From Podarcis vaucheri (lineage: Eukaryota): 64,000 bases of DNA. The position numbers and the translations under genes are program-made. The stretch is from NCBI GenBank assembly GCA_965113315.1, contig OZ220364.1; one strand, written 5' to 3'. The notes below the pieces were generated by a model. The model was given only the letters and a program-made list of their open reading frames with translations. It searched no databases and was not told the DNA's origin. Shown here piece after piece: positions 9,595 through 56,016 of the stretch (its first letter is position 1; every line of letters begins with the position of its first letter).

Positions 9595-9769
9595 AGAGAG
9601 ACTGAGAACACACAGCATTGAATCATCAGGAAAATTGAAGATTTCCCCTGAACAACATTGGGATTTTACTGCAGAGGACTTGAAAGATCTTGGAGAAATT
9701 GGACGAGGCGCTTATGGTTCTGTCAACAAAATGGTCCACAAGCCAAGTGGGCAAATTATGGCTGTTAAA
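9595..9769 (+). CDS. MAP2K4: MAP2K4 exon 3 (ERLRTHSIESSGK...GEIGRGAYGSVNKMVHKPSGQIMAVK), glycine-rich loop and catalytic Lys
   Basis: Poly-T tract and AG acceptor, GTAGGT donor, 175 bp; peptide matches MKK4. Confidence 0.98.
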
Positions 9770-30858: not shown

Positions 30859-31427
30859 TCACCACTGTTGTAAATGCAGGTCCATGGTACTGTTCAAGTT
30901 GAGATCACTAACATCTAAGAAATCAATGTTGAAGATGCTGGGCCCAGTGGTGGTGAGGGAACCGAAACCGTTGGCTGAGCTAGGCGGAGTGAGGTCCAGC
31001 CATTCCATTGTTTCCCAAGGAGACTCTGTGAAGCTCATGTGCAAACCAGTTCCTTCTCCAGAAGAGGGAGACAGCTGGGTCTCCATGGGCGACAGGGGAG
31101 TGGGCAGGATCTCGTGGGGTGTCAGCAGTTCATCGGCAGCTTTGTTGGAAAATCCTTCCATCACCCCTTCAAAGTGTGGTTCTTCACCCACTTTCAGTAG
31201 GGTGATTTCACTCGACCGCCCCAGAGGGCTGTGGGAATTTAACAAGATTTCCAGATGACTGTCGTTGCTGCTAGGGCAGTGTTCAAAGGACAGCTGACCT
31301 GAGGGGCCTTGCTCAAATGAAGCAGATGTCTTCAGTAGCGAGGAAGTGCCGGAGGTCCCCGAAGACACTGTTATCTGAGGCACCTTCTGAAGGCAAGGGC
31401 GGTCCTCTTTGGCATTTGCAGGCATTT
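30859..31427 (-). CDS. MYOCD: MYOCD last exon (EMPANAKEDR...SPWETMEWLDLT...MDLHLQQW*), transactivation domain
   Basis: CAG acceptor at 31428-31430, phase 1, TGA at 30859-30861; myocardin C-terminus. Confidence 0.97.
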
Positions 31428-31943
31428 CTGTTTGCAAACAAAAAAGGCTCATCAAGAGCAGATCTACAACATTACTATGCCGTGCACCCCAAGCCACCCT
31501 ACAACCTGAAATGTTATAAAACATCTTGCACATCCATGATTACTGCCTGTCAAGACGGCAGACTCCTTTGTCTACAGTATGAGATACCCAATGGAGCAAT
31601 TCGCTGTTGCTGTCAGAGAAGTGTGTCCTACTTTTCTTTTGGTTGGATATAGCTTTATGTGATGCTATGCTAGAGTAACTTGGCATACCAGGAATCTACT
31701 TTGTGGTTCGGTGAGCCTGTAAGGTGTAACTAGGAATGCCTGGGTGAGAAGAACAGAAAGATCGCAGAAGAGCCAACAGCAGATTGTGGTCAGGGAACAC
31801 AGTAGGTGCTCCATCCAAGGACCGCAGGAAGGAAATCAGTAGAAGAAGTTATCACTAAGTATGTGTGTGTTGGCAAGGACTTGTTAAGAGGGAAAAAGAT
31901 GAGCGGATGAGTATGGGACGTCCTACAGCAACTAGAATCTTAA

Positions 31944-32190
31944 TACTTCACCAAACCATTATTAGGCATTACAAGTATAAAACATCGATATATAAAATTA
32001 AAAATATATACAAATAAATAGACATGTAAACTATATAAAAATGGGATTTCTTTCCTTGTGATTTCTTCCCACTAAATAGTACCATTCACCACTCTAAGAG
32101 ATACTGTTGACCAAAACTCAGCCACCCTTGCAGTTACTTCCGGGTTAATGTCAGACAGATAGATTCCTGTATGCTTATATCAGATTCTGA
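31944..32190 (-). mobile_element. Short 3'-end copy of the LINE at 37500-38545
   Basis: Shares acttcaccaaacc.ttattaggcattacaagta...ctcagccacc.ttgcagttacttc...tgtcagacagataga. Confidence 0.8.
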
Positions 32191-32451
32191 TTGTTAAGAC
32201 CACACAATCTATTTTAGTGCAAGGGTGGCTAAACTGTGGCCCTCCAGATTTTGGGCTTCATCTCCCATCATCGCTGACTGGGGTTGATGTGAGTTGGGGT
32301 CCAGTGACAGTCTGAGGGCCACATCTGGTTTCTTAAAATAAGCCATCAAGAAAATGCACTTTGGGAGCGGCACTTTCTTTCATGGGCTATGACCATGGCT
32401 ACATTTAGCAGTAGGCATTGGACTCAAATTATGTCTTACTATGACTAGGGG

Positions 32452-32810
32452 GTAAGGATGCAGGTGGTGCAGGTGGGTTAAACCACAGAGCCTAGGACTT
32501 GCCAATCAGAAGGTCTGCAGTTCAAATCCCCTTGACAGGGTGAGCTCCCGTTGCTCGGTCCCTGCTCCTGCCAACCTAGCAGTTCGAAAGCACATCAAAG
32601 TGCAAGTAAATAAATGAGTACCGCTCCAGCTGGAAGGTAAACGGCGTTTCCGTGCGCTGCTCTGGTTCGCCAGAAGCAGTTTAGTCATGCCAGCCACATG
32701 ACCCGGAAGCTGTATGCCGGCTCCCTCGGCCAATAAAGTGAGATGAGCGCCGCAACCCCAGAATCGGCCATGACTGGACCGAATGGTCAGGGGTCCCTTT
32801 ACCTTTACCT
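32452..32810 (+). mobile_element. Near full-length Squam1/Sauria SINE with 12-bp TSD
   Basis: tRNA-like head, (ACCTTT)n tail; TSD tatgactagggg at 32440-32451 and 32811-32822. Confidence 0.92.
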
Positions 32811-32994
32811 TATGACTAGGGGAAATTCTCTGAAATTGCCATTTTGGGTACCACCCTTCAGTCAATGAAAAGCATTGGGGCTAGGGGTTAGTGCAGACAC
32901 AGCGATCACAGTGCACCCTCTTTGGGCAGCCAGAGACTTCGCTCATACTTGCTTTGACCAGAACCAACAGTCTTGCCTTAGGGATATCACCTAC

Positions 32995-33052
32995 CTCCAG
33001 TTTCAATAAGCACATCCAACAGTTCATCCATTTGCTGGCTTCGGGTCATCTG
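32995..33052 (-). CDS. MYOCD: MYOCD penultimate exon (QMTRSQQMDELLDVLIETG)
   Basis: 58 bp, cagCAG acceptor, GTAGGT donor. Confidence 0.96.
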
Positions 33053-33916
33053 CTGCAGCAAGAAAAAAGCAAGGGATGTTAGGAAGTTAGTACTGGAGCC
33101 ACGCACTACTATACTAGAAAAATCAGCTTTGATGGATAGAGAGAGATGCTTTCAAAAGAAAGCTGAAGCCTCATACATATAAGGATGATAGAATCTCCTT
33201 GACAGTCATGTTAAATAAACAATGATTCCTTAGTAACTAGTTGAAACAGGTCTCCTACAATACTTGAGCAGTTTTTTGTGCGTATAGTAGGCTGTTATGT
33301 TTTACAATTAATACCGTTATAGTTCATAAAAGCCTCAGAGAAGCAAGATCAATAGCCCTCCCAAAGTGGAATGAAAACTCCCTCCTTCACTCAGATGTTC
33401 AACCTGTAACTAATGTTACTTAGAATAAAATCCCACCACATTCATTGGTACTTACTTCCTAGTAAGTATGCTTACGTTGGCTCCTGTTAACCCACACAAA
33501 CTTTGTGTGACCCACTGCAATTACCTCTTTAGGGGCCATCCTGCAGTGCTCTTGTGTGTACTTTTTTGAACCAAGTGTTCAGCTGTAGCTTGCAAACTTA
33601 GTTCATTCAGAGATCATTCTGTTTCTTCTAAAAATTCAGATGGCCCTTCCAACAGAAGTCACCTCAATCACTTCAGCTGCTTATTCAATGTCTGAACAAA
33701 TAAGAGGTTGAATGAATTTGCATTTGCTTTTAATCCAATTGACTGTATATAACTCTTTCTACAACAATAAATTCAGTTTTCAAGGCTGTCGGTAGTCATC
33801 TGCTTTCACTCATAGGTCACACAACACTCTCAAATCTGCGATTGGCTTTGATGTACATAACAATCAAAGCAAGCTATCTACAGCCAAGGATAGCCTACCA
33901 AGCACCAGACTGTTAC

Positions 33917-34030
33917 CTGTTTCACAGCATCAGCGTAGGGTGGCGGCTGCTTTCCATCTGGGAGGGCAGCATTTGACTTGCAAAAGCCAGGAGACAGAAT
34001 GGAATACTTCTGACTACCTTGTGCTGGCAC
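33917..34030 (-). CDS. MYOCD: MYOCD exon (VPAQGSQKYSILSPGFCKSNAALPDGKQPPPYADAVKQ), PPxY-like motif
   Basis: 114 bp, phase 0-0, CAG acceptor and GTAAC donor; homologous to human ...QPPSYEDAVKQ. Confidence 0.9.
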
Positions 34031-34337
34031 CTGTGTGGAACCAAAATCAATCACAGGGATCAAGCCAAACTTGGGCCAAGTCTGCTATTCAGCAGTTGCC
34101 TCCATAAATTTACCTCTTGCACATGGGAACAAATCAACAGTCAATGAGGTGATCTCATTGCAAATCCAGTGGAAGCATGAGAAAAAGTCAAGGCTCCGGA
34201 AGCCCATCTCCCTTGCTGTAATAACAGTTTTGCCATTGATAATGGCACTTACAAAGTTCTGCAAAGGAGTTTTGAAATAATATTGAATTTCCTCACCCAC
34301 TAGTAGAAAACTGCAGTAAAGGCTGCCTGGTTTAGGG

Positions 34338-34588
34338 CAGGGGTGAGCCAACTTTTCCAGCAGGGGGCCGGTCCACTGTCCCTCAGACCTTGTGGGGGGC
34401 CGGACTATATTTTTTGGGGGGAGAATGAATGAATTTCTATGCCCCACAAATAACCCAGAGGTACATTTTAAATAAAAGCACACATTCTACTTATGTAAAA
34501 ACACACTGTTTCCTGGATCATCCGCGGGCCAGATTTAGAAAGCGATTGGGCCGGATGCAGCCCCCGGGCCTTAGTTTGCCTACCCATG
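34338..34588. mobile_element. Non-autonomous hAT (Charlie-like) element
   Basis: CAGGGGT...ACCCATG ends; degenerate 8-bp TSD (gtttaggg/gcttaggt); inverted copy at 59498. Confidence 0.8.
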
Positions 34589-35091
34589 GCTTAGGTGATA
34601 TACTTTCTTTTGAATGGGCAGGAGAGAGTTACAGGGACACCAAGGGTGGTAATTAAGCTGTATATGTGGAAGAGTGGGTAGTGTCCAGCTTCTTAATGAC
34701 TTCTGAAAAAGTTGAACCTACTCTGCTTATGTGTATGCCACCATCCTTGAAATGCCGTTCTGCAACTTGAATGCAAACCAACAGATGTATATTTTAATCA
34801 CTGGAAGATAGGCAATTAAACTCCTCCTTTCCTGTTTGGTATTTCATCAACTGAGAAGCAATAATAGCTACAGTAGGTAAACTGGGCCTGGACACATGGA
34901 ACACAGCCTGCCAGTTTTGAAACATTGCACTGCCCCCCAGTCTGATTCTGGGCACAGTTCAAAGTGCCTTTGAAGCTCCGAGCAGTTTGGAATCTGGATA
35001 GAATGGGAGCTGCTTTAACACCCTCCCTAACTCTGCACCCCCCAATAATAATAATAAAATTAATAATAATAATAACAAGTAGCTTTCTTAC

Positions 35092-36042
35092 TGGAGCTGT
35101 GCGAAGATGGCTGCTGGGCTGTGGAGAGCTGCTGCGTCCTTCTCCCTGAGTGCTGGGGGACACAGAGAGAAGGTAATGGCTGTTTGGTGAGGGTGGAAGG
35201 CTGATGTGTTGCGGACTCTTTGCTGCCTCTAGTGGAGAATGCTGGGGAGAGCACTGTGGGCTTAGGAATGTGGAGGACAGTATGCCGCTCTGTCCTGACG
35301 GTTCCATGCAATGGCTATTTACAAGATGGGGCAGCTGAGGTGTCCCACAGTTTCTCAGTGTGTCCGAGTTGCTAGCCTGGCCTTTCAAGGGAGCTTGCTT
35401 AGAGGCAAAGGGACAACTGGACGCTGGGTTTTCTTGCTTGATCGGAAAGCCGAAGAAGTGTGGAGAGGGCTGCTTCTCGTCCAAGCCGTGGCTCCTTTTG
35501 CGCTTCTGCAGCTGCATCCTCAACTCTTCCACTTGCCTCTGCTCTTGCTGCAGTTTCCAGGTCAGCTCATTGATGACCTTCTGCTTTTCCACCAGCATCT
35601 TGTCTTTCTCTGTGTCCACCCTTTCCACGTCGAGCTGGATGCCAGCGCCGTTCATGCTTCCCATCAGGCTTTCTTCACACCCGCCTTGCACAGGGGAAGG
35701 GTGCAGGACAAAATGGGGGGAAGACATTGGTCCTTCGTTGAAACTGTCTGGCAAGGAGCCATTCACCGATAGGTCTGAGGAAGCTGGGGAGATGGGGGGA
35801 GTAGAGCTGGTGCTGCCAAAGTGGTAAAAGCCATTGGACAGCAGGCTGGCCGAAGACTGCGACTGGTAGCTGGAGAGAGAGTTGGTTGGTGTCACTGGGA
35901 AGGTGACGGTGGTTATCTCATTGAAGCTGGGCACAGAACTCCCGTTGCACTCCTGGAAGGGCCGCAGGCGTTCCATCAAGGCCGTTTTCGTACCTGATAC
36001 AGGGAGGCCCCTTATTCGGAGCTGCTGCCTCAGCTCCGACAC
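35092..36042 (-). CDS. MYOCD: MYOCD exon 10 (VSELRQQLRIRGLPVSGTKTALMERL SAP domain; leucine zipper KQKVINELTWKLQQEQRQVEELRMQL)
   Basis: 951 bp, phase 0-0, CAG acceptor, GTAAG donor. Confidence 0.97.
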
Positions 36043-36361
36043 CTGGAATGAAAGCCGTTTAGTCAGTGGCAAGGCCGCTTTTCAGTTCAACTTTGTGGCA
36101 AAGTAGCAACCTGCTTACAGTGGACCCTGACCCAAATCTAAACCAGAGATTATTTGCACGGACAAAGAGTTGGGCTGGGTAAAGTTTGGGCTCCAAAATG
36201 GCTGCTATTAATTGGACTGGATACATCAGTTTGTCCCTGTGCTGCTTAGCACAACATTACTTGGACATCTCTAATTATTTCTATTGCCTTAGGTGCTATG
36301 CTGTCCAAATTAAAATTATGCAAGTTGTAATAAGCCTGGAGTGGGACTGAACGTGTGCACC

Positions 36362-36487
36362 CAGGGCTTATTTTTCAGCCGGAATTCAGTTCAGCACCTC
36401 TCAGGTGAGCTCCGTTGCCATTCTAAGAGAACAAGGGAGACATTCATTGTGAGTTCTGGCACCTCTTTTTCTAGAAAAATAGCATTG
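36362..36487. mobile_element. Short hAT-like MITE remnant
   Basis: Imperfect TIRs cagggcttatttttc / gaaaaatagcattg; no clear TSD. Confidence 0.45.
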
Positions 36488-37278
36488 CCTATAGAATTTG
36501 TGGCTGGTTTTAACCTGGGCTGCCCTTCTTACATTTTAGATATAGACAGAGCAGTGTTTCTTGAGAAACTTGGGGGAAAGAGAAGGCATGCTTTCCAGTC
36601 AACCACCATTACTCCTGAGGATACTCTCCTGTCCCTGCTTAGGAGCTGCAGCCCTTTGGGCACAGGCAAGTCCCCCAGATGAAGACTAGGCAGAACATCA
36701 GAGCTTGTTGAACTTCCCATTACTTTGCTTCCTGTGGATGGCCTATATTTTCAGCAACAGCTGCCTGAGCTTGTGCCTCTGGCACGTGCCTGTGTGTATA
36801 TAAGTGTTCGCTTAGGGAACTTGGTTTCAATTGATTTCTTAACGTATGTTATTTTTAATGCTTGAGGTTTTTTCTTGTTCCAGGGTTGCCTTTGTGTTAA
36901 TTTTGTTTTAATTTAGTGTGTTAGTAAAATAATGGTTTGCATTCTTAAACAACGAATATTATTGAAATAGAACTGGCTCTGCCATCTGTTTTTAAACAAG
37001 CTACAATGTCCGATTTTATTAGTTCTAAGTCAGCTTTGGCAAATAATAATTTGGTCTCTTCTCTACAGTCCACTGACCCTAGTTGGTCTGTTGATCTTAT
37101 GGTGGTGTTTGACTGCTTCAATTTATGTGATATTTGAATTTTGATTAATTTGGGATATTGACCGAAGTGCATGTGTTAACCATGTGTTTGCTGGAGGAAC
37201 ACACTGCCTCCACATGCAGTTTCATATACCACACAGAAGGTTTTACACTTTTCATCAACTTTTGCATTCAGTACTCAC

Positions 37279-37432
37279 TTTTAAATCATCCAGGTTGGAT
37301 GGGAGAGGACCTGGCTTGAGAGACGAAATGCAGGATTGCCCTGAAAAGCTTCCCTTCCCAGGGGAAAGAGGGCTGCTGGCAACTGTCGATGGGGAAGAGT
37401 TTGAGGTTTTGGCCATTTGCTCATTGGGTTGC
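37279..37432 (-). CDS. MYOCD: MYOCD exon 9 (QPNEQMAKTSNSS...KPGPLPSNLDDLK)
   Basis: 154 bp, CAG acceptor, GTGAGT donor. Confidence 0.96.
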
Positions 37433-37499
37433 CTGTAAAAAATAAAAGTGCAGAACATTTTCCCCCTTTTGTTTTCTTCTTCTTTTTAAATATCAGTAT

Positions 37500-38545
37500 T
37501 CTTACTTACTTCACCAAACCTTTATTAGGCATTACAAGTACTGGCCATCATAAAACATCCATATATACAAATAAAAGCCATGTAAAATATGTAATTACAA
37601 GAATTATCATTGGGATTTCTTCCTGCTAAATAGTGCCAGTCACCGCTCTAAGAGATACTATTGAGAAAATCTCAGCCACCTTTGCAGTTACTTCTGAGTA
37701 AGTGTCAGACAGATAGAATCTGATATTTTCATTGTGCCGTGATGTTAGACTTCCCAAAAAAGGAGATAGCACGTGTTTACATAGCTGGTTGTACAATGGA
37801 CAGTAGAAAAGGATATGTTCTACAGTGTCTGGCATGTTCAAATAACATCTGCAATGTCTATCATTTCTGGGGATGTTTAAATATCTGCCTTTGACAAGAG
37901 CTGAGGGGGAAATGTTCAGCTGGGCTGGAATTATTAATTTTGAGATTTAAGTGACCCTGTTATCTGGTGTATTTAAACCATAGAACTTGGGGGAGCAAAT
38001 TTTATTTACAACTTATTCGATGAATGTCCCTTAATCTAGTTTGAATATTGCAATAAATATATTGCTCACTTGAATTATACCAGGATTCCAAGTCAATACC
38101 AATAGATCTAATTTTGCTATGTAAGAGCTGGAACGATCTGGATGTATAAGAGTTCTTAAGCAAGTCAGAGAGCAGACTCAGAGGTTGGCAGCAAAAATGG
38201 CAACGCAGCCAGTATTTTATAGTGCTAGCCTTCATCCAATATTCCATCATGTGTACACCTAGTTCTGCATACATCGTCTCATACTTGATTGAACTTAGGA
38301 GCCCCAGGATACATCTCAAGAAACTTGAGTGTATCTTATCTAAATCACTATTATATGCTTCTATCCATATTGGGATCCCAAAAAGTAGCTGGGATGACAC
38401 TTTGGCTTGAAAAATCTGAATAGCAGCTGGTATAATTTGGTCACCTTTCTGAAAATAAAAGCGAGCTATTGCTGAGGAGTTACACTTTGCCTGTTTTATA
38501 GCACTTGTGCGATGGGTTGACCAACCTGAGTTGCTCTGCAATAAA
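37500..38545 (-). mobile_element. 5'-truncated non-LTR retrotransposon (RTE-X-like): post-RT region plus Cys/His motif (DTVEHILFYCPLY)
   Basis: ORF 38002-38541 (IFQAKVSSQLLFGIPIW...FLRCILGL...YAELG...IKYWLR) resembles LINE RT C-terminal regions; 3' end has AATAAA and a short (GTAA)n tail; second copy at 31944. Confidence 0.75.
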
Positions 38546-38785
38546 ATTTACTGCATCACCACTGTTGTCCTGAAGGGTACAATCCTGCTGAAGTTTGGAA
38601 GAGTTGACCACACTTAAAAGAGAGAGGCTTTCTCTCTTAAGCACACACTTTAATTTCTTATTTAAATTAACAGAGCTTAAAAGTGACTAATGGGCTGGAA
38701 TGTGCCCCAAATTGATTGCGGCAAGAAATCAAACCTGGGTAAGGTGGAAAGGTCACTCTAGGAAACCTTTCCGTTACCAACTCAC

Positions 38786-39042
38786 TTCAGCTGCATGGAA
38801 TGGGGCCCCGGATAGTTGAAGTGCTGCTGGTGCCGGTGCTGCTGCTGCTGGCTGAGGATTTGGAGCTGCAGGAAGAGCTGCTGCTGCTGCAGGAGCCTTG
38901 CATAGGCAGAGTCCATGGGCGGAGGGGACTTTTCCGCCTTCTGGTCTGGGGGAATGTACTGGTGGTACTTAAGCTTCTTCACTTTTGGCTTCATCTCCTT
39001 GGGCTTTTTGTGGCGATTCTTGCTATCGCTCGATGGTTTTGA
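38786..39042 (-). CDS. MYOCD: MYOCD exon 8 (basic B1 region KPKVKKLKYHQYIPP and Q-rich region; SRF binding)
   Basis: 257 bp, TAG acceptor, GTGAG donor. Confidence 0.97.
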
Positions 39043-39719
39043 CTAAATGGGGCACAAATAAAAATTTCAATAAGATTATCTGCAACATGGAGTAACTGAA
39101 GTTAGTTAGAAAGTTTAGCGAGCTCCCGTGCCCAGGGCCTGTAAGCCTGCAAGTCAGTGGAGATAGTATCAAGACTGTGGGAGGTCATAATAGATGTCCC
39201 TTCTCACTAGAGTTGTCGAAGGAATCCACTGAAAACAGAATATCAAGCAAATTTCCTTTAATCTGCCCATTTTATCCCCACTGGCAGAGACACTCGCTGT
39301 GGAAACTATTTACCTTAGTTATCTACAACGAACTTAAAAAAAACACCACACCACATGAACATGTTATGTGTAAATAGATATGTAAATTGCTTTGCTATAT
39401 ATATTATTTACATCATCATGTATACAGGTGCCTCTTTACTGTCCTTGTTTCTAAAGTGTTGTTCGCACCCTAAGGCCACCTATATGCACTAATATGTTGC
39501 AATCCCAACAATGTCTACTCAGAAGTAAATCTCACTGACTTCCAAGTACGGTTACAATTTCAGACTTAATCTGTATCCTCTTGTGTATTTCAAAGCCAGT
39601 GGAATGCATTGCTCCTTATTCTTTTCACATGGAAAACCACACTTCCTGGGGTTACCTTGACTTACAACTAAACTGTTCCTCCCTGACACCAGAGTGAAAA
39701 AAGCAAGATAGGATGATCA

Positions 39720-39799
39720 TGTAGCGTAGCTGGTTAGAGCATGGCAGGGGGTTGGACTAGATGACCCTCAGGGTCCCTTCCAACTCTATGATTCTATGA
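39720..39799 (+). mobile_element. tRNA/CR1-tail SINE remnant
   Basis: ggttagagcatgg head piece fused to gggggttggactagatgaccctcagggtcccttccaactctatgattctatga (CR1-type 3' end). Confidence 0.7.
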
Positions 39800-41052
39800 G
39801 AAGTTTATATTGAACTGTGAAATCAAGGTAGCGAGAAGTAGAAGACTCTAGTTTTCTTGCTGCAAAATACTAACATGGTTTCCCCCACCCCACCCCCAAG
39901 AAAACACAAGGAATGTAACTCATTTGTAAGTTATCTGTTGATGGCTGAGATATATGTGTCTAATGTGTGCTACATAAAAAAAATATGTTAGAAATTACAA
40001 GTATTTCCACATCAGCAGGCAATGAAACAGCACACAAACTTTTGAAAAATAGATCAATTGCATAGGAATGGAAAACATCAGAAGAAAGTGCAAATGAATA
40101 TTGCAATTGAGACGTGTTTGTACATCCCTTCTTCCCATCTGACCTTCTGTAGTTGAGTACAAGGAACAAAATATACAGGCACCACATCATTTGTAAAGGG
40201 CATGTTTATATATTTATTAGCCACACATTCCTTTTAAAACAGTCTGAAGCAGCAATCTGGTCCTTACCCAGATGACACTTCCAAGAATTTTCAAATGATA
40301 TGTATCTAATAATATACTAATGCATGTTTTACAATCGTCACAGTACTGGTGTGTTTTGTACTTTGATACTCTGACCCAAATATAAAATCTGAACATGTAA
40401 CGCAGCCTTAAGATAGGCCTGCTGCTCCCAACATCATGGGGCAGTCCTCAGGTCACCTCCCCGGTGACCATTTTTAAACATTAGGTGTGTTTGGAATTGC
40501 AACTCCCGTTATCCATAGCTAGCATGACCAGTGCTCAAGGGTGATTGGAGCTGTAGTCTGTAACATGGGCAGGACACCATGTTGCCCATCGTTGCTTTAC
40601 GGCTTTTAAATATTTCTTTCATTTTTAACTTGGGCAGCATCCAGCTACTCCCCTTTCCCCCAGAATGCCTCTGGGTCCACCTCCATAGGAAAGGAGTAAA
40701 GAAGGAAAGCTATAGGGCAGTGCTTTGCCTTCCAACTTCTCTCTAAATATAAGAAAAGGGACGGAGGGCCCTCTTGTTGCCCTAGAGGGACAAGGGAGTA
40801 TTTTGTCTGTTTTGAAGGGCAGAGTTTCCCTAGATGTTTTGGGAAGAGATACGTGCATAAGTGGTTTGTCTGTTACTTAGTGGTTTACATGGAATATTAA
40901 ATATACATTAAAATTATCCATAAAAGTTAAGCAACTTTTTTTTAAAAAAAAATCAAAATATAAATGGAAATTAGTAGTTTAAAATATACCAGTGTTTGGT
41001 TTGGAGTATGCATGGATATTATTTCTGTTGTCTGGGGCAATATTTCTGAGTA

Positions 41053-41289
41053 CAGTGGTGCCTCGCAAGATGAAAAGAATTCGTTCCGCGAGTCTTTTCG
41101 TCTTGCGATGTTTTTCGTCTTGCGAAGCATGGTCCGTCGCAACTGCGCCTCTTCAAGCGGCTTTTTTAAAAAAGTGCAAGACGTTTTCGTCTTGCAAAGC
41201 AAGCCCATAGGGAAATTCATCTAGCGAAGCAATGCTAAAACGGAAAACCCTTTCGTCTTGTGAGGCATTCGTCTTGCGGGACACCACTG
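41053..41289. mobile_element. MITE family A copy 3
   Basis: TA-flanked CAGTGGTG TIRs; homologous to 8230 and 11538. Confidence 0.9.
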
Positions 41290-41694
41290 TATTGCCATTT
41301 TCCCTCTCTGAAATGGGTATTTTGTAGTGCCCATGACAGCTTCATAGAATTCCACAATTCCTGAGACAGATGAATGAGCCATCTAACACAAGGTCCTGTT
41401 GGCGCTATTGTTGGAAACAGCTTGGCTTCAACAGATCATCAAAGTCTCAGCTTGCTCCTTTTGCAGGTACTTTCACCCCAGAATTCTAATGGACCCAGTT
41501 TTGTGACACAAGGAGGTACTGTCTAGGTAGTTCCTAGCGACTCCCATCTCCAAGCAAGGCCAACACTGTAACTCACCTCCCCAAACACCTAAAACCATTC
41601 CCCCCCCTTACTGCAGATGAGTGCTAGCTGTTGTCTAGCCAATAAGCCATGTTAACAATTTTTCTTCCTACGTAGTGGGAGGTTAGGCTCATAC

Positions 41695-41820
41695 CTTTGC
41701 AGATGTGTTAACAGTGCCAGGAGGTGTTTGTTGCCCATTCTGTTGTTTAGGACTTTCTGGCTGGCCATTCCTCAGAGATGTCATATCAGCCGTATCATTT
41801 TCAGAGCCAACGGAATGATC
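41695..41820 (-). CDS. MYOCD: MYOCD exon 7 (DHSVGSENDTADMTSLRNGQPESPKQQNGQQTPPGTVNTSAK)
   Basis: 126 bp, phase 0-0, TAG acceptor, GTATG donor; GSEND motif as in human. Confidence 0.9.
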
Positions 41821-43202
41821 CTAGAATCAAAATAAATACATGGAAATTAATAAACATCAATATGCACATTTTCAAGAAGCCTATCCACATGCAGGCAGCT
41901 TACAGACTATTACAGAAATGGTCCATGCTAGTCTTGCTCAGGACCAGTTATCTTGACCTTGTTTGGAGCCTTCACTAGGACTGGACTACATGTTATCACT
42001 TTTTTCAACTGGCATCTCTCCATGATCTGTATTTAGAGCAGTGTAACATGGAAGTTTCCTTGCCAGCATCCGATGCTCCTGGAAACTATGTGCACCAGCC
42101 TTCAACAACCTAGTGACCACCTGATGTTACTGGACTACAACTCACAACATCCAATGGGGATTGTAGTTCAAAGCAAGCTTTAGTGTATTAGGCTGGGCAA
42201 GGCTGCTCTATGCAATCAAGAGGATCTACGGTAGATGTTAAAGCAATAGCATGGATTGCCGACAGAAGGCAGTCTTCCATAGGGATAAGGTTCCATATAA
42301 AATGGGCTTGACACTGAAGTAGGTAAAAGAAATGGATGACAAGCTGTGAGAGCAGTGAACTACACCCCTAAAATCACTTGATCCTAAAACGGCTAGCTAG
42401 CTAAATCCAATCCACCAACTGATAAATGCAAAGTTCTTCTGTAACGGACATTCTATAAATAAATGTTTTTTAAAAAAAAATAATCAACAAAATCTACCTT
42501 GGAGGCCCCCAATTTCTCAGTCTCCATCATAATCAATCAGCATATTTGGCTGGTGACTCGGGACTCCCTGCCATGGCATTTCTACACAGCTGAGACCAAT
42601 CGCATTTATCAGGCTAGTGTTATTAGGGAAACCAAATGGACGAATCGTTGGGCTCTGTGCCATAAGTGCTTGGAAAATGGAGGTGCCCCATGCCAAGTAC
42701 ACTGTGTAACAAAACTGCCGGAATGGAGGAGGGCACTCCAAGCCAAGAATATGTCGTGTTCAGGTTAACAGTGGCTCAGGATCCTTTGCAGGACACCCCC
42801 ATGTTTTATGTAACCACCAGAGGCTGACCTTACAGCTGGCTTCCTCCATAGGCTACAGTGCCCTCAGAGAGATCTTGGCATGCATTGCATCTTTTTACCC
42901 ACAACGAGTTCTTATTCCAGCCCCGAGGAGAGGAATATGCTTCCTCTGGCATCAGACATTTTTTTCCTAATAGAAGCTCTTGTACGCATTGTCCAGTACT
43001 GGATGCTGACGAGGGGTGAAGACAAACGTAAAAAGTTTATAGCAGAGGGGCTGATTTGGAAGCACACTCACTGTGCTGAATCCAAGCGCATGTTTTCTGA
43101 TCTGGATTGAGCTTGTGGGAGGTGGGTGTGGCTTGGTTCTGCAAATTTAATCCAAGGTATCAGGACGTCTCATCTGTCCAAAAGTAAGAAATACCGTTTT
43201 AC

Positions 43203-43378
43203 CTGAGTTGTCCCTGACATTGTGGGTAACGTTGCTTCTGAAATTTTGATTCCGGCTGCTGATTCTGTGGATCCCTGGGAATCCTCGCTTCTGATCTGCT
43301 CTGGAGACAGCCCATCATTGCTACTATCTTCTTCAAAAGCAAAAGCATCTGAGGATTTAGAGAAGTTTGCTTGGTTAC
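43203..43378 (-). CDS. MYOCD: MYOCD exon 6 (NQANFSKSSDAFAFEEDSSNDGLSPEQIRSEDSQG...)
   Basis: 176 bp, CAG acceptor, GTAAA donor. Confidence 0.95.
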
Positions 43379-45372: not shown

Positions 45373-45534
45373 CTTTGATGGCTTCTTTCACAGCTGAGTC
45401 AACAGGAATGATATTCTTCTCCACCAGCTCCAGAGGACCTGGCCTAAGAGCAATTTTCTCATTTAGATTGTCTGCAAGACGGGCTCTTTTCAGTTTCATC
45501 TGAGTAGCCTGGACAGACCCTTCTGTGGCTGAAT
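45373..45534 (-). CDS. MYOCD: MYOCD exon 5 (SATEGSVQATQMKLKRARLADNLNEKIALRPGPLELVEKNIIPVDSAVKEAIK), B2 NLS and RPEL3
   Basis: 162 bp, phase 1-1, CAG acceptor, GTAAT donor. Confidence 0.97.
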
Positions 45535-47422: not shown

Positions 47423-47498
47423 CCTGTAAAATGTGCATATCAACCAGTTCTGAGCGCTCAGGTCTGTTTCGGGTCTTGTGCTTTAAATAATCTTCAGT
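47423..47498 (-). CDS. MYOCD: MYOCD exon 4 (TEDYLKHKTRNRPERSELVDMHILQ), RPEL2
   Basis: 76 bp, TAG acceptor, GTAAG donor, phase 0-1; too short for the ORF track. Confidence 0.95.
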
Positions 47499-47631
47499 CT
47501 ACAGAACATAAGAACAGAGATCATTACCTCACTAGCTTGATTTAAAGTGCATTAGGCAATGCTTCTTTAAAAGGATTCAGTCAGACTTGGTCTAACTGAC
47601 GTTCATTTTAGTTAACATTTGTTCTTCTCTG

Positions 47632-47817
47632 GTAGGACCCACACCAAAAGATTCAAGTTACAGGAAAAGAGATTTCAGCTCAACATCAGGAATAATTTTC
47701 TGATGGCAAGAGCTGTTTGACAGTGGAACCGACTAAGCAGAAGCCATCTGCATACTTTAGTTGAGATTGCAGGGGTTGGACTAGATGACCCTCAGGGTCC
47801 CTTCCAATTCTATAATT
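47632..47817 (+). mobile_element. CR1 LINE 3' fragment
   Basis: agattcaagttacaggaaaagagatttcagctcaacatcaggaa...gggttggactagatgaccctcagggtcccttcc. Confidence 0.75.
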
Positions 47818-49804
47818 ATCCCACAACTTTTTGTCTGGATACTGAATGTCTGTAGGCTAGGACTTGGATCTTTTAAGAGCTCCATTTGTGCAAACCCGAA
47901 CTTTTGGCAGGTTTCCCAGAATGCAAGTAACTTATAATTGGCACAAAGGAATCATAATACTACACCAACTTTTAATATACACTATATTCAGCACAATTTC
48001 AGTTTAGCTTACGGCACAGATCTTAAACAAGTGTAAAATTCAGACCTAAGTACCCAGCTGTATCAAAGTAAATTTATTTACTTCACTAGAACTCATCTAA
48101 CAGCAGCTCTGTTGTGTTTTAGCTAATAGGTATTTAAAATCCACCGCAATTAAATTGGTGTAGTTTCATGTTATGTGTGAACAAAGATTTTCAAGTAGGT
48201 TTCCCATCAGTCCCTCTCAACCAAACTAGCTGTGAAGTGTTCTGATATTGCTTCCCCCTGCCAGCCCCCAGGCCCCTCCCCAGCTGAATAAAGGCTTAGA
48301 ATATATTTTTGGTTCTACTTCTCCCTAAACGAATGTAGTTTAGGGCTTTTGACTCATATAATCCTTTTTTCTTCCAGGCAATCGGCCAGTAGAAGCCTTT
48401 GAAGGGAGACTGTGAGATATTAACCTATGCCTGAACATTGAAATATAGGGTACTTCTAAGATACTTCAGACTTCTTGAAGTGTTCTAAGCACATTTATTT
48501 TTCACAGGGGGCTATACATCCTTCCTTACGTTGGTCTTGAATTTTTGCAGGACACTCATATACAATAATGTAACATAGGCATCTTCTACATGTGTGCAGG
48601 TTTTTGATAAATGCCTATACATAAATTTCATCAAGAGTTTTGAAAGTAAGTTAATATATATGTACACAGAATTGTAGAGACTATAAAAGGATTCACTTGT
48701 TTGGCTTCCTGACCTAAATTTCCTCTACATATTAACTCCTATACCATAAACAGAGGAAATAAAGGATAAGGTGCACCACAAGTTCTCATTAAATGGAACA
48801 AGTTAACAGACGGCAACTACTACTACTACTAATACAAATTCTGAGCAAATCAAGTCATAGTTTCTAGGTAGGACATTACAAAGTTACCATATACTATTGT
48901 CCATCTAGCCCAGCATTGTCTATTGTAACTAGCAGCATATCTCCATATCTCTTTACCAATCTTGCTGCTGGTGTCATTGGACCCGGGTCGTCATCCATGC
49001 AAAATACCAGCTTTATGAATGAGCTATAGGCCTCTCTATATATGGATTGTATTCTTTATATAAGAGAACTGCTATCAGTCTTGGAAAAGGCTTCTCTAAG
49101 CAGACAGTTCCCCAATTTCCCCCTTTGCCAAACTGCAAAATTCAGAGAAACACAAATTTTGAAGGATGGCCTTGTTTAAGTTTGCGTATTATTTCTGAAA
49201 TTGCAAATTAGGTAGGTTCGCCTTTAAATGTAAATGGAATAAAATTTCTGCCCCCCCCCCGCTGCACCTCTAGTAAGAGCCTTGGCTGGAGACTTGCAGC
49301 AGGGAAAGCTTGAGAATATCTTGTACTTTCTCTAAATGAGACCAGATCACCAACTCTTCCACTAGTGGGGTAGGTGGGGGGGGGGAACTGCCTCTTAATC
49401 TTATCTTTCTCATTAGCTTTAATTAACAGCGCCTAAACTCTGCTTGATAACTGGTGCCAGCAAGAGACAAGAGTACAGGTTAAGAACAGCCCAAAAGCAC
49501 TCTGCAGTGTCACAAGGAGAGAAGGGCAATATGGTGTACTGCAGACACCAGGCACAAGGTTTCCTACTGGGGATGGATATATATATATATATACCACAAA
49601 GCCACTCTCTCATGGGACATGTGCCAATTAAGTTTAGAGCCCTGTAAAGGTGTGCTAAAGGTATAGTAGTATCTGCAGAAATGAATCCAGTGATTTTCCA
49701 ACATTCCACTCACATTCCTGCACATGGCCACAACCTTCTCAGCAGCTAGTTAACCTGCATGATGCCATCTCCAGCCACCCCCTCTGATGCCTACCCAGGG
49801 TTAC

Positions 49805-49860
49805 CTTGGCTCTCTCCAAACTCTTCTTCTGCTCATGGAAGGGAGAGGGGTTTTTCAGCG
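49805..49860 (-). CDS. MYOCD: MYOCD exon 3 (P-LKNPSPFHEQKKSLERAK)
   Basis: 56 bp, CAG acceptor, GTAAC donor, phase 1-0. Confidence 0.95.
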
Positions 49861-52800
49861 CTGCAATCAGAAACAGACAAAAGCACAATGAGCACAGCAA
49901 GCAACAAGTACATTTTCAGCATTGTGCCATTGTAACAAAGTTCAACAAAATTAGCCACACAAATCAGCCAGCCCCTTTATTGCATCAAATGAAAATGAAT
50001 GAGGAATAACCACAGACATTCCCAGGCCAGGCTGTGGCAGTGGAAACGAGGCAGAGAGGAGCAAAGACACAGATGGTAACTAAAGCAGGGGGAGAGCTGA
50101 GAGCTGTTTGGAGACAGCCATCTTTTTTAAGGCATCTTAGAGGGAGGTGAGTGGCCTGGCGGTAAAGTGCAGCCTGTCCAGTATCCAAACACATTGGGTG
50201 AGAAGCTCAAGAGACAGAGCCTTGCACGTTAATCCTAGACGCATTTGGGGAGCTTGGTTTCAGTGGAGTTGACTTCCAGCTAAAGTGATCAGTCGGGGAG
50301 GAAGGATCTAGTTATGGAGAGGACCACCAGTGAGATTAATGTCCAGAGGAGACCCGCTAATAAAATTGAGAGTCTGAGTCTCATTGTATCACATGGATGT
50401 CAGCAGCACATACAAAATCAGCAAGAAGGATAAATTGCTCCATTCTGTCACACATTCTTTTCAACAATGAGCTCTCCTTCCTTCATCCATTGGCAAAATC
50501 TCCTTCTCGATATAAGAGAGTAAGCAGAATGCTCCAGTAAATTCTGATACTCTCCACCAGTGCCTGCTCTGTGTTCTGAACCACATTCCGGATATTTGTT
50601 TGGAGGACATATTTGTTTCTTCAGATTGCAGTTCCATCGAGATAAAAAAAGAGGTTCGCCTCCTCCACCATATCTTAATGCCCTCCAGTGATAAACATGC
50701 TGTTAGGATTGAATCACAACGCTGTATTTGTCCTACAGGAATAAATGGCAGCAAGGAAAAGGTAGGGGCAAAACCTGCTCCTTGAACTCCACTCCCCAAC
50801 TGGCAGCCTTTTCCTATCTGCATAGTCTCATCATGGAGCCTTTCCCCCCTCTCCCTACCATCAGTGTTGGCTAGTTCTCACTGACTAGGAAATTTGTACT
50901 TCGTTATACTCTATCACCAAGGGGGAGGCTGTCCCAGTGTGTTCACAGGCTTCGTGAAGATGACTTGGCACACAGTTCCCAGCTCATTTGGGTCTCACTC
51001 TCTGAACCATTTCTGGGTCTTGCTATTTCTTCTGTGTCATGGGTTAAGGGCATGAGAGGAAAGCATCGCTCTTCCCAAAGCTGCACAAAAGCTCTTTATC
51101 TCATGGCTGAATTGTAGCCTAGTTATTTATACAGTGAAAGTTGTCCAGAATCCAAAAATAAAGATTGCGGACACAATTCTCATCTCCATTTTAATAAGTG
51201 TCAAATTATTGTTTGTTTGTTTTCTTTGCACAAAATGTGACTCGGAGCACAGTCAAACTGTGGGATAGGAAAATCAAAGGCCAAGAGAATTATATATTGT
51301 GTGATTTTTATTTATTTAAAAACCCTCTTTTTTCAATAAAATAAACAAAACAACCCAAACTGCTTTTAACAAATGGCTTCTCTAGTCCCCACATGCCAGT
51401 TGTTACCTCCCGTCACCAAACGGATTTATTGTCAGAGTTATGAGTCATTTTGCATTGACGCAATTGGATGAGCTAATTTATTATTTGCCTCCTGTAGTTA
51501 ACTAGATCCTAAAGCACGATAGATATTTTGTTTTATTGAAGACTCAAACCCTGCGCAACTAAAAGGCCAAACAAAAAGAAGAAGAAAATATTAAAGTGAG
51601 TGAGTAAATAAAAAAGTGTCACAGAGCACCAAAGGCAAAGTTAGAGGAGACACCTCAGTGGTAAAAGACGGTTGTAAAACAGATTCTGGTAAACTTCATA
51701 GGGTGAAAACCATCCTACTTTCAGATATTGCAAGAGCAATCTGAGAAGCTGGTGCACCAGTGCAGAGGCCTGGTTCACAGCTAGTGGGATGGTGGGAAGA
51801 GCTTTGAGAGAGCATCCGATAAAAGTAATCTGCAAGGCAGAAAACCAGTGTTGCTCTTCTGCACAGCTCAATTAATGCACATTACAGAACGCTAAAGTTA
51901 TGTAGGATCCACGACAAAGGATAGACGCAAAACAAAGGGACCTTTGCCAAGAGGATTGATGTGAATTCTGCAGACAAACCAACAGCATATGATTGTCTGA
52001 GAAAAAAATCTATGTCAATATGGGGTTGAATGTGTTGGTTCTTCCATGAGGGAAGTCGTGGCAGTAGTGGAAGTTTAGAAGTTAAAGTCTGGAGTGAGAG
52101 TACAATGATGAAAGGAGAATTACACGCATAGGATTGTATCCAAAGTAGCATTGAGTAATATTTTCTGACAGAACAAGGATTTCCACTTGCACAGCTGGAC
52201 TTACCTCCTCTCCCCTCTTGTGTGCTTCCTAAATCTGTTTTAGGGGCTCTCCAAACTCTCCAGCAGAGTAGATTTGGGGAGTGAGTTGGACACAAAGGAG
52301 GAAAAAGTCCCAATGTGCAAGCGGAAATCCTTGTGCTGATGGACCACGTGAGTTGGACACTGCCCCACAACACAGACCTGTCCTGAGCCTTCAGTTATCA
52401 CAATTTTTAAGAGCATGTGCATTGAATAATGAGTATTGCAATTAAACATAATTAACTTTCTCGTTGTGCCTGCCAGGAAAGGCTTTTGGCCATGGGGTGG
52501 GAAGTGTTTTGTTTTCACAGAGAAAAGAAATCAGGAAATAGCTATAATTTTAAAAGACAAATAATAGATTTGAAATCTTATAGTTTATAGCCATTTTGAT
52601 TTTAAAAGAGTGACATGAAGTTTGAATGCTTTGGTTTGAGAGGAAGGGTCCCAGTGAGAGTGCCACCATGGCGTTAAGAGAGGCTTGTCAGCTGTGTGAC
52701 TTGCTTGCCGATGATAAATAGTGGCAAATCAATAATGAGTAAAACCTGTGTCTATCACCCAATCATATGAATCTTTGTTCATATGAGTTTGGGTACATTG

Positions 52801-54121
52801 ATTAATTTATTGATTAAACTTGCATACATTTGCATATGAGATAAAAATGGTTCTAAAGAAAAACGTACTTTGTTTTAAAATTATGCCCACAAGTGGCACA
52901 GTAGGCCTCATCTTTGAAGAGCTGTCCCCTGTTCTATCACACACAGAAGGACATGACGCTGATTGACATCTGAAACTTCTTTAAGTACTTATGTTAAAAA
53001 CTGATAATGTAGATATACCAATTTGGGGGCAGCTTGTCAGCTGATCAAATTAAACCTATTAACCTAACCAATTAACTGACTAAATCCTGAACCCCTACTA
53101 ACACCACTAACTAACTGACTGCATTTACACACCACAGTAAATGCTTTTGCCATAAACACAGGTAATGGTTTAAACATAAACACACAGGGGCTTCCTGTTT
53201 TGATCATTCCCTAGCAGGAAGAACAAAAGATAATCCCTAGTGTTACATCTGAATTGGAGATAGCAGTTTGTTTCACTCCAAACAAAGTTTGATTTATCAA
53301 ACATAGTTTGAGTGAAACAAATCACAATCCTTGGCTCAGATATTATTAGGGATGTAAGAAAACATTATTTTCTGTTCTGACCTCTATTTGTTGCATGCAG
53401 CACTGTTTATGTTCCACTGCGCTTTGTCTTCCACAAAAAACCACTTTATCTGTATTTCCATCCACTGTGTCAAATTATGTACCTTATGTAATTTACATGC
53501 AAATTATGTTGCCGTGATGTTATTCCCCCCTATTCATTTCAACGCAAAGAAAACACAATGCAAGTAGGGGTGGGGAAAAGTAATAATTCATGTATCTTCT
53601 GTGGACTGAAAGCAGCAACAACAACAGGTGGATTTCCATTTTGGACATGGGATGAATAAGTGAACATTGGCAATTTCCACTCCTGTTTCCATTTTTCTTG
53701 GAATTCTGCAGCATCCCCAGATGTAATGTTAAGCCAGGGATTGTGCTCATGCTTGTAATAGGGGAGAAGCAAAGCAGGTGTGATCTCCACATTCACAACA
53801 AACCATTAACTGTGGTTTGTATTAATTGTGAACTGGGCAATGAGGCTTCAATATAGGCTTATGAGCCTTGTCAATGTGAGAAAAGGCATCAAAGGAGAAG
53901 GCAAAACAAAAACCCACCCTTAAATTAGGAGGGCTGGAAGACCTAATACTATGGACATGTGCAGAAAACGTGATTTATTTGCTATATTTATATATGCTGC
54001 TCCTCATTTTTTGTGAGGTTCTCAGTGGTCTCCTATCCAAGTCCACACTCACTTAGTATCAATCAAGTTACATCATGTATTCCGAAGGGATTTGCTGGGC
54101 AGTGACTGCAAACGGGATGTA

Positions 54122-54293
54122 AAGGTAAAGGTACCCCTGCCCGAACGGGCCAGTCTTGCCAGACTCTGGGGTTTGTGCGCCCATCTCACATCTATTGGCC
54201 GGGGGCCAGCGCTGTCCGGAGACACTTCCGGGTCACGTGGCCAGCGTGACAACGCTGCTCTGGCGAGCCAGAGCCGCACACGGAACGCCGTTT
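54122..54293 (-). mobile_element. 5'-truncated Squam1-family SINE (divergent subfamily) with 10-bp TSD
   Basis: aaggtaaagg tail on +; TSD acgggatgta at 54112-54121 and 54294-54303. Confidence 0.85.
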
Positions 54294-55254
54294 ACGGGAT
54301 GTAGTTGGGTGTAATTCTCTAACTACCTACCACTGATGAATATGTGAGTGCCCAGGAACAAAAGTAATCAATGGGATCTCTTCCTACAACATAGGAAGCA
54401 GGATTATATTAAGGGCAATTACCTTGCCCTTTCTAAGTTTTGCATAAACCGATTAGGAAGGCAGTCGAGAAATGGGCAAAGATGTGCACTTTTTGTCAAA
54501 CTCACCAGAAAGGTATGAGATGCATGTATTTATCATGGGTCCTTGGGCGTTTTTTATATCCTTCAAAATGCATCTAGGGAAATGTCATATCTGAAATAGC
54601 CCTAAGCACATACTAGTTGAAGCCCATGGTCAAGCACTGTGTCCTAGAAAGAAAGATGTTTGGGACTGTGGAAGAGGGGGAGATGAAATAAGGTGAAAAG
54701 TCTGGAGTCATGGTGGTAACCCATTTGCCTCGGACGCCTAAACAAATGCTGCTATTCTTGCCTCCATACCCCTTGCCACTTTCTTTCTCCCCCTCTTTGA
54801 GGAGTAAAATGCCTTTTAGGGGGTAAACTAGCAGCCTTTATGGGGTGTCAGAACATCCCCTGACAGTTGGCAAACACCAATGACACCTCATTTTTGCAGA
54901 ACATGACAGTTAATTCTGATAGTGGGATAGGATTAAACCTGCCAAGAACTTTGGGCAATGTATTAAATAAACAAGTCTATGTGGATCCACTCTGTCACAC
55001 ATAACATGCTGTACCTGCACTACAGACACTGAAATGCCTCATGAAAATGCCAAACTGCTGCATGCACCATTCGTATGGAAGCGACAGACATTCCATGCCA
55101 ACAATGTAGAATGTTTTGCAGGAGGTGGCTTAAGAGGAAAGCAATAGCAGAGGCCAACTACAACATGCGGCACCCAAAGGCTTAGGCAGTCACTGTGTGT
55201 GGCTCAGAATCAGTGTGATCCAGCAGAGAGAGAGAGAGGGTGGGTGCTTGGGGT

Positions 55255-55393
55255 GGGAGACCTGGATTCAGATCCTAGTTTGACCATGGACTCACTGGGT
55301 GGCCTTGGGCAAGGTGTTATCTCTCTCAGTCTCAGTTTCCCCATCTGCAAAAAATTGGAATAACAATGACCTGCCTCATAGGGTTTTGCAAGG
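55255..55393 (+). mobile_element. MIR/CORE-type SINE remnant
   Basis: ccttgggcaag...ctcagtttccccatctgcaaaa...gacctgcctcataggg core. Confidence 0.65.
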
Positions 55394-55950
55394 TGCCCTA
55401 CATCCTAAATGAGTTATGAAAATGATACAGTATAGTCTACTTCAGGAATAATCAAGCCCAAACTCCCTTTCCTGTGAGGCTCATTAGAATCCTAGATTTT
55501 GGGATGCATGTGTAAGTTATCTTCTAGTCCCGAGTTTAACAGTAATTGCAGTAACAAGCTGAGTATGTGATGGCAAAAATTCCATGCAATCTGTAGTGCC
55601 GGACCAGTTGCTCAACTCAATCTCTTGCTTATGATTGTACCAGAAATAAATAATTTTTGCAGCAGTACAGACTTCTCAGGGTGGGCACTATGTAAGAAGG
55701 TAACTCTCTGCCACAAATATTTCCTTCCTGCATAAGAGTTGATTCTTGCAGAGGTACATAGCACCAGATCTGTGTGTGCTAAAGTGGTGCACGTGTACAA
55801 GCCTGCTTTGCCCTTCTTAGAATCAGAAACAGTCCCTAATGATGCAAAGTTGTATTATATTTATTTGGTGGTGGATAGTGTGACCCTCAGCTGAGGCTGC
55901 ATGGGCCTGCTAGTGCATAAAAGATAAAAGTGAGAAAGCAAAGTACTCAC

Positions 55951-56016
55951 GTGGCATGATTCCCTGGTTGGCGAGCTGCTCTCGGCTTCTTCGCTGCTGC
56001 AGCCGCAACTGTAAAA
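55951..56016 (-). CDS. MYOCD: MYOCD exon 2 (V-LQLRLQQRRSREQLANQGIMP-P), RPEL1
   Basis: 66 bp, CAG acceptor, GTGAGT donor, phase 1-1. Confidence 0.96.

What the first reader, a model, noticed from the sequence alone, without database searches (positions are those of the whole stretch)
47423..56016. Myocardin with an intact, MRTF-like RPEL domain: possible actin-regulated myocardin
Seen in sequence: exons 2-4 encode LQLRLQQRRSREQLANQGIMPPLKNPSPFHEQKKSLERAKTEDYLKHKTRNRPERSELVDMHILQ, followed by RPEL3 (RPGPLEL) in exon 5. Established (sequences from recall): MRTF-A has SLERARTEDYLKRKIRSRPERSELVRMHIL and shuttles under G-actin control. Mammalian myocardin has a degenerate RPEL2 (HLDSDKAKNSLKRKARNRCNSADL), binds actin poorly and is constitutively nuclear. 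The rest of this gene (ending DLHLQQW) is clearly myocardin. Inference: the lizard protein retains the ancestral Rho/actin-sensing module. Differences from MRTF-A (KRK->KHK in the B3 NLS; LKSP->LKNP at the ERK site) may retune it.
Basis: partly seen in the sequence, partly recalled or inferred. Interest (0 to 1): 0.7.

Follow-up and report, generated by a model that had tools for sequence, protein, structure and literature searches.

The report
Non-mammal myocardin keeps actin-binding repeats
This lizard's myocardin, a master switch for heart and smooth-muscle genes, keeps most of the actin-contact residues that placental mammals lost; it likely senses actin only weakly, while bird and shark myocardins keep the full set and are predicted to be the better actin sensors.

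Summary
The gene is the lacertid myocardin ortholog (tree; 914/920 identical to Podarcis muralis); exon 3/4 and 4/5 joints occur in RNA-type contigs. An MRTF-like RPEL1-spacer-RPEL2 is the ancestral state: eight core RPEL2 contacts are complete in 22/22 birds and 5/5 sharks, but in 7/19 squamates and 0/38 placentals. This lizard has Thr at MRTF-A Ile122, one of two positions blamed in print for mouse myocardin's weak actin binding. Squamate RPEL2 changes as fast as placental RPEL2 (1.6x and 1.5x the exon-10 rate; birds 0.07x). KHK is ancestral and shared with MRTF-B, so it is no lizard retuning. New lead: an upstream alternative first exon in this genome resembles the export-signal exon of full-length MRTF; it occurs in 40/241 non-placental and 0/120 placental rows. 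Verdict: probably intermediate actin binding in the lizard; constitutive nuclear myocardin may be a mammalian derivation, best tested in birds. Binding and localisation are untested; no monotreme or marsupial was sampled.

The parts
55951..56016 (-). MYOCD exon 2: RPEL1 (non-canonical RR type); keeps Arg84, which is Gln in 38 of 38 placentals
55296..55344 (-). 49-nt cassette exon in intron 2, used in squamate RefSeq isoforms; own in-frame ATG; shifts the exon-1 frame to a stop in exon 3; likely analogue of mammalian smooth-muscle exon 2a
   Evidence: tblastn of P0125 at 55347-55294; frame check (run with ends 3 bases off, same length); exact ends read; not tested with reads
49805..49860 (-). 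MYOCD exon 3: spacer 1; Asn at MRTF-A Ser98 (ERK site); keeps Phe102, Glu110, Arg111, Ala112
47423..47498 (-). MYOCD exon 4: RPEL2 with B3 basic element (KHK); keeps L118, K121, R125, P126, R128, L131, I136, L137; Thr in place of I122; holds the internal Met equivalent to the mammalian short-isoform start
45373..45534 (-). MYOCD exon 5: spacer 2, B2 basic element, RPEL3 (0 changes among 19 squamates)
30859..43378 (-). MYOCD exons 6-13 (43378-43203, 41820-41695, 39042-38786, 37432-37279, 36042-35092, 34030-33917, 33052-32995, 31427-30859): basic/Q-rich region, SAP, zipper, activation domain, stop
9596..9769 (+). MAP2K4 exon; neighbouring gene, tail to tail with MYOCD (MAP2K4 as the human MYOCD neighbour is recalled)
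   Evidence: PDB 3aln, E 2.2e-29

Best explanation
This is the lacertid myocardin gene, whose RPEL1-spacer1-RPEL2 unit keeps most of the ancestral MRTF-type actin contacts but has Thr at the Ile122 cleft position, so it likely binds G-actin at an intermediate strength and would be damped by actin rather than held in the cytoplasm like MRTF-A. Shown: orthology, exon structure, residue states, the clade pattern, and two first exons upstream (a MEF2-binding type 3.4 kb beyond the window and an MRTF-full-length type about 59 kb beyond it). Inferred: RPEL1 and spacer 1 load actin about as in MRTF-B; RPEL2 loads it more weakly, so the cooperative complex that hides the B3/B2 import signal forms only at high G-actin; the cardiac isoform, lacking the N-terminal export signal, is mostly nuclear; the isoform with the upstream exon may be partly exported. 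Across jawed vertebrates the full contact set is ancestral, is held under strong constraint in birds and sharks, and has relaxed separately in squamates and, further, in placentals.
For: Tree: window groups with Podarcis inside vertebrate myocardins, apart from MRTF-A- and B-like rows (quick tree, SH-aLRT 100/99); separate MRTF-A-like, MRTF-B-like and fourth-paralog loci exist in the same genome. 8 of the 9 RPEL2 contacts named in PMC2583105 are kept. That paper names I122 and P126 as the substitutions likely to explain myocardin's weak binding, and alanine at both helix-1 hydrophobic residues abolished binding. Profile score 186 lies between placentals (103-145) and birds (206-216) or the training MRTFs (228-249). 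Pfam finds 3 RPEL stretches in P. muralis (55.6 bits), 3 in buzzard (61.9), 1 in human (43.3). Parsimony changes, RPEL2 against exon 10: birds 1/171, sharks 1/92, squamates 30/233, placentals 126/1046; squamate vs bird p 3.5e-6, squamate vs placental p 0.74. Single changes in this region cut actin binding of MRTF-B (A91P, R104G); by my offset of 21 these are A112 and R125, both kept here.
Against: No binding or localisation data for any non-mammalian myocardin were found or produced. A single Ile122Thr change has no measurement in what I read; Thr keeps a methyl and may cost little, and Arg128, regained on the same branch by my reading, may compensate. Relaxation is a clade average and need not apply to lacertids, which are among the highest-scoring squamates (squamate range 153-191). 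Parsimony counts came from pairwise projections on quick trees, so exon-10 counts may be inflated by annotation errors. The RPEL2 rate above 1 could also reflect positive selection. The spacer contacts were not checked against the pentameric structure paper (not held).
Confidence: 0.5

Rival explanations
1. The lizard protein behaves like mouse myocardin: nuclear and actin-insensitive. The MRTF-like look is kept for other jobs (the importin signal inside RPEL2, MEF2 and ARP5 binding at the N-terminus) or is decaying slowly.
For: I122 is lost. 13 changes fall on the 9 RPEL2 contact positions among 19 squamates, including Pro at 128/131 in tegu and Ser126 in Anolis. B3 lies inside RPEL2 (PMC2964165). 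ARP5 and MEF2 bind residues 1-27 (PMC9900090). All three MRTF motifs must bind actin for regulation (PMC2583105).
Against: The lizard outscores every placental by at least 41 bits and keeps R84, Y117, E110-R111-A112 and P126, which placentals mostly lost. An import signal does not explain conservation of hydrophobic contacts in birds and sharks.
Confidence: 0.3
2. One reading: lizard myocardin is a fully Rho/actin-switched, shuttling coactivator like MRTF-A or MRTF-B.
For: 8 of 9 RPEL2 contacts and all checked RPEL1 contacts kept. The RPEL1-RPEL2 unit decides regulated versus constitutive behaviour (stated in PMC2583105). An upstream exon with the export-signal spacing exists.
Against: Ile122 is invariant in 22 of 22 MRTF rows and is Thr here. 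Spacer 1 scores 37 bits against a minimum of 53 for MRTF rows. The cardiac first exon has no likeness to the NES1 exon (-1.9 bits, 348 of 1000 shuffles as high). The upstream exon lacks the Ser33-Pro site and has Ser for Arg in the docking stretch.
Confidence: 0.2

Closest known systems
Mammalian myocardin (MYOCD; human P0419)
   Same: Ortholog: 630 of 920 residues identical, same clade, MEF2-binding first exon, SAP domain, same C-terminal end, MAP2K4 as neighbour, a cassette exon between exons 2 and 3.
   Different: Keeps R84, Y117, E110-R111-A112, P126 and R128, where human has Q, S, D-S-D, C and S; Pfam sees 3 RPELs, not 1; has an MRTF-full-length-type first exon seen in 0 of 120 placental rows.
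MRTF-A (MAL/MKL1; PDB 2v52, 2yje) and MRTF-B
   Same: Triple RPEL domain in register, non-canonical RPEL1, B2 and B3 basic elements, 8 of 9 RPEL2 contacts; KHK as in MRTF-B-like rows; homologous alternative first exon.
   Different: Paralogs at other loci in this genome. Thr for Ile122, Asn for Ser98, Pro at 101, Asp for Arg133, Lys for Arg113; no Ser33-Pro.
Bird, crocodilian, turtle, coelacanth and shark myocardins (database records, not functionally studied in what I read)
   Same: Same MRTF-like RPEL1-spacer1-RPEL2 and same upstream first exon type.
   Different: They keep Ile122 (22/22 birds, 3/3 crocodilians, 12/14 turtles, 5/5 sharks); birds and snakes have lost the hydrophobic anchor of the export-like motif that lacertids and the horn shark keep.

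Membership tests
Myocardin (MYOCD) orthologs | Groups with vertebrate myocardins, not MRTF-A/B | tested here: met
   (quick tree; careful tree not finished); best hits all named myocardin; other paralogs found elsewhere in G000
Myocardin (MYOCD) orthologs | MEF2-binding first exon, basic/Q-rich region, SAP, activation domain | tested here: met
   first exon at G000:C10:42971351; SAP 39.6 bits in P0121; exon model
Myocardin (MYOCD) orthologs | Degenerate RPEL1-2 (I122 and P126 both replaced, as in mouse) | tested here: not met
   P126 kept, I122 replaced by Thr; the feature holds for placentals only (0 of 38 keep both; 63 of 71 non-placentals keep both)
Myocardin (MYOCD) orthologs | Constitutively nuclear, no shuttling | not testable with these tools
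   needs cell imaging
Actin-regulated MRTF-A/B | Three recognisable RPEL motifs | tested here: met
   Pfam PF02755, 3 stretches in P0121, whose RPEL1, spacer 1 and RPEL2 equal the window's
Actin-regulated MRTF-A/B | All RPEL2 actin contacts (L118, K121, I122, R125, P126, R128, L131, I136, L137) | tested here: not met
   8 of 9; Thr at 122
Actin-regulated MRTF-A/B | Bipartite B3/B2 import signal in the RPEL domain | tested here: met
   KHK at 119-121 as in MRTF-B-like rows, B2 unchanged; by sequence only
Actin-regulated MRTF-A/B | N-terminal NES1, Ser33 and Ser98 phospho-sites, ERK docking motif | tested here: inconclusive
   NES1-like spacing in the upstream exon (9.8 bits, 0 of 1000 shuffles); Ser33-Pro absent, Ser98 is Asn; splicing of this exon rests on RefSeq models (P0128, P0002)
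Actin-regulated MRTF-A/B | Orthology to MRTF-A or MRTF-B | tested here: not met
Actin-regulated MRTF-A/B | G-actin binding and Rho-dependent shuttling | not testable with these tools
   needs biochemistry and imaging

The most novel reading that the evidence does not exclude
The textbook split (MRTF-A/B actin-switched, myocardin constitutive) is a mammalian derivation. In sharks, birds and other non-mammals myocardin is itself a G-actin-gated coactivator, with an MRTF-type export-signal isoform, and squamates and placentals uncoupled it independently; this lizard is a half-way case.
Probability: 0.4. Interest if true: 0.7.

Novelty: new variant of a known kind. Interest (0 to 1): 0.5.

Why it matters
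Myocardin's actin independence is taken as a property of the gene, but the papers I read test mammalian proteins. If bird, shark or reptile myocardin is actin-gated, then chick and other non-mammal heart and smooth-muscle models run a mechanically sensitive master regulator, and the mammalian state is a dated evolutionary change that can be traced residue by residue (R84, E110-R111-A112, Y117, I122, P126). Natural variants give a ready series for testing how much RPEL2 affinity shuttling needs. The lizard sequence alone is a routine ortholog and not the best test case.

Tried and rejected
Lizard-specific novelty: rejected. A mis-named or chimeric MRTF gene: rejected. KHK as a lizard retuning: rejected. 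Monotreme and marsupial myocardins: none among the 120 rows listed in each of three searches (920, 531 and 3009 hits in all), so the mammalian loss is not dated. No run holding the stretch is on record as RNA; X19 raw reads gave only repeat matches and X5 no joint. Exon 2, the cassette exon and both first exons were not covered by laid reads. No complex was folded: no actin chain was at hand, and a fold would follow 2v52; PMC9900090 reports that even mammalian myocardin residues 1-60 model onto beta-actin like the crystal structure. Guettler 2008 (one search was a wrong id) and Mouilleron 2011 are not held. Ten paper searches listed no paper on non-mammalian myocardin RPELs by title or abstract start; two returned nothing, 12 and 67 were too loose to be informative. 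Earlier-findings look-ups gave one unrelated note. The careful tree did not finish; the quick tree is reported.

Full report
Observation. Twelve exons give an open frame of 920 codons, 914 identical to Podarcis muralis myocardin X4. Contigs of runs guessed to be RNA, from a coded organism, show the exon 3/4 joint (2 of 4 runs laid) and the exon 4/5 joint (1 of 4), with no difference over exon 4 in X7. Exon 4 passes the Pfam RPEL cut-off alone and matches mouse MRTF-A RPEL2 in the PDB.

Identity. The large SAP exon retrieves myocardins (120 of 920 hits listed, nearly all so named). A 34-row tree puts the window with Podarcis and Rhineura among vertebrate myocardins, apart from MRTF-A- and B-like rows (quick method; the A/B/C labels of unnamed rows are my assignment; a fourth paralog nests unresolved near the base of the myocardin clade). 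The genome has three other loci with a related exon 5, two of them with perfect MRTF-A-type and MRTF-B-type RPEL2 exons, so myocardin is not standing in for a lost MRTF. A MAP2K4 exon lies in the window.

What counts as intact. Mouilleron 2008 (PMC2583105; parts 1-3 of 6 and passages read) names RPEL2 contacts L118, K121, I122, R125, P126, R128, L131, I136, L137. It reports that alanine at both helix-1 hydrophobic residues abolishes binding and P126A lowers it 16-fold, and it says the I122 and P126 substitutions likely explain myocardin's weak binding. The lizard keeps eight and has Thr at 122. Thr is shared by the three Podarcis species and Zootoca but not by Rhineura, so it is a fixed lacertid change, not an assembly error.

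Comparison across vertebrates. I picked by hand one record per genus (two Alligator species) with a complete RPEL domain: 109 rows from the roughly 370 myocardin rows fetched. I dropped four squamates whose records lack RPEL1 and one short shark record from the counts, and used 22 of many bird genera. The eight contacts other than R128 are complete in 5/5 sharks, 4/5 ray-finned fish, 2/3 coelacanth and amphibians, 11/14 turtles, 3/3 crocodilians, 22/22 birds, 7/19 squamates and 0/38 placentals. Arg84 of RPEL1 is kept in 71/71 non-placentals and is Gln in 38/38 placentals. On a profile from 22 MRTF-like rows the RPEL1-spacer1-RPEL2 unit scores 186 in the window, 103-145 in placentals, 153-191 in squamates, 206-216 in birds, 213-216 in sharks and 228-249 in the training rows, which are inflated by construction. 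Placental decay is graded: 10 of 38 keep P126. A Danio record also has Ser126. So the MRTF-like state is ancestral and the lizard is intermediate.

Constraint. On trees built from the part after RPEL3, parsimony changes per site in RPEL2 relative to exon 10 are 0.07 in birds, 0.13 in sharks, 0.59 in turtles, 1.62 in squamates and 1.48 in placentals; squamates differ from birds (Fisher p 3.5e-6) but not from placentals (p 0.74), while RPEL3 shows 0 changes in squamates. This is a protein-level count on pairwise projections, not a codon test. It argues that birds and sharks hold these contacts under selection and that squamates as a group do not.

The two retuning ideas. His120 is in all 71 non-placental myocardins, in 7 of 22 MRTF rows and in the lizard's MRTF-B-like locus, and placentals often have Arg, so it does not track regulation; PMC2964165 (section 6 and passages) tested only the triple alanine. 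Ser98 is an ERK site that opposes actin binding (PMC4963197, passages); Asn here removes it, but Ser100-Pro101 follows, and the cardiac isoform may lack the docking motif anyway (inference from the BSAC result).

A new lead outside the window. 40 of 241 non-placental rows (159 with RPEL1) begin with a different first exon that ends like the full-length MRTF N-terminus; 0 of 120 placental rows (91 with RPEL1) do. This exon is in the genome at G000:C10:43026957-43026804 with a phase-compatible donor, about 56 kb upstream of the MEF2-binding first exon at C10:42971351. A profile of 18 MRTF N-termini scores it 9.8 bits (0 of 1000 shuffles as high), the horn shark's 40.9 bits and the cardiac first exon -1.9 bits; shark and lizard align through it. 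The lacertid exon keeps the hydrophobic spacing of NES1, mapped to residues 41-49 of MRTF-A in PMC4963197, but not Ser33-Pro; birds and snakes have lost the anchor. Absence in placental protein records is not proof of absence in their genomes. Squamate records also use a 49-nt cassette exon in intron 2 that drops RPEL1, like the mammalian exon 2a described in PMC3941051 and PMC9900090 (passages).

Mechanism. Shown: the sequence states above. From literature: actin loading on RPEL1-RPEL2 hides the import signal, and each motif is needed. Inferred: the lizard domain loads actin better than mouse and worse than MRTF or bird; the cardiac isoform is mostly nuclear and damped by G-actin; the upstream-exon isoform may shuttle (0.5). 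Rivals: mouse-like and actin-insensitive (0.3); fully MRTF-like (0.2).

Novelty. The gene is annotated in several lacertids. Ten searches of the open library listed nothing on non-mammalian myocardin RPELs; I saw titles and abstract starts for most, and passages of PMC8199744, PMC9287330 and bioRxiv 10.1101/2022.12.06.518921 (that preprint's supplement not seen). Guettler 2008 and Mouilleron 2011 were not available and may hold multi-species alignments; my knowledge of them is second-hand or recalled. Verdict: a real, testable variant of a known regulator, more about vertebrate myocardin as a whole than about this lizard; interest 0.5.

Noticed in passing
G000:C10:43026957-43026804 (L008), about 59 kb beyond the window end: Alternative myocardin first exon homologous to the NES1-bearing exon of full-length MRTF-A/B; seen in squamate, turtle, bird and horn shark records, in no placental record fetched.
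   Followed up: partly
window 55296-55344, minus strand: 49-nt cassette exon with its own ATG in squamate isoforms; it looks like an exonised MIR/core-type SINE (resemblance recalled, not tested) and may be a convergent version of mammalian exon 2a.
   Followed up: partly
G000:C34:18428813-18428941 (L004); P0206, P0211, P0234: A fourth family member with a MEF2-type N-terminus and strongly decayed RPEL1-2 sits near the myocardin clade; possibly the MASTR/MAMSTR lineage in longer form (recalled, not tested).
   Followed up: no
window 9596-9769 (+) and 30859-56016 (-): MAP2K4 and MYOCD lie tail to tail within about 21 kb of this exon; in human I recall them in tandem, which would imply a local inversion.
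   Followed up: no
P0367, P0378, P0420, P0465 (mouse lemur, horseshoe bat, armadillo, mink): Some placentals keep Arg125-Pro126, so RPEL2 decay is graded within mammals; tegu (P0136) has Pro at 112, the position of the human MRTF-B A91P variant by my offset.
   Followed up: partly
P0345 (Danio aesculapii): Danio myocardin has Ser126, and RPEL3 did not align, suggesting a further independent loss in this fish.
   Followed up: no
window 45760-46050 and 47770-47810: High-copy repeats in introns 3 and 4 (very deep read pile-ups); similar elements recur near 32500-32900, 54100-54300 and 63700-64000.
   Followed up: no
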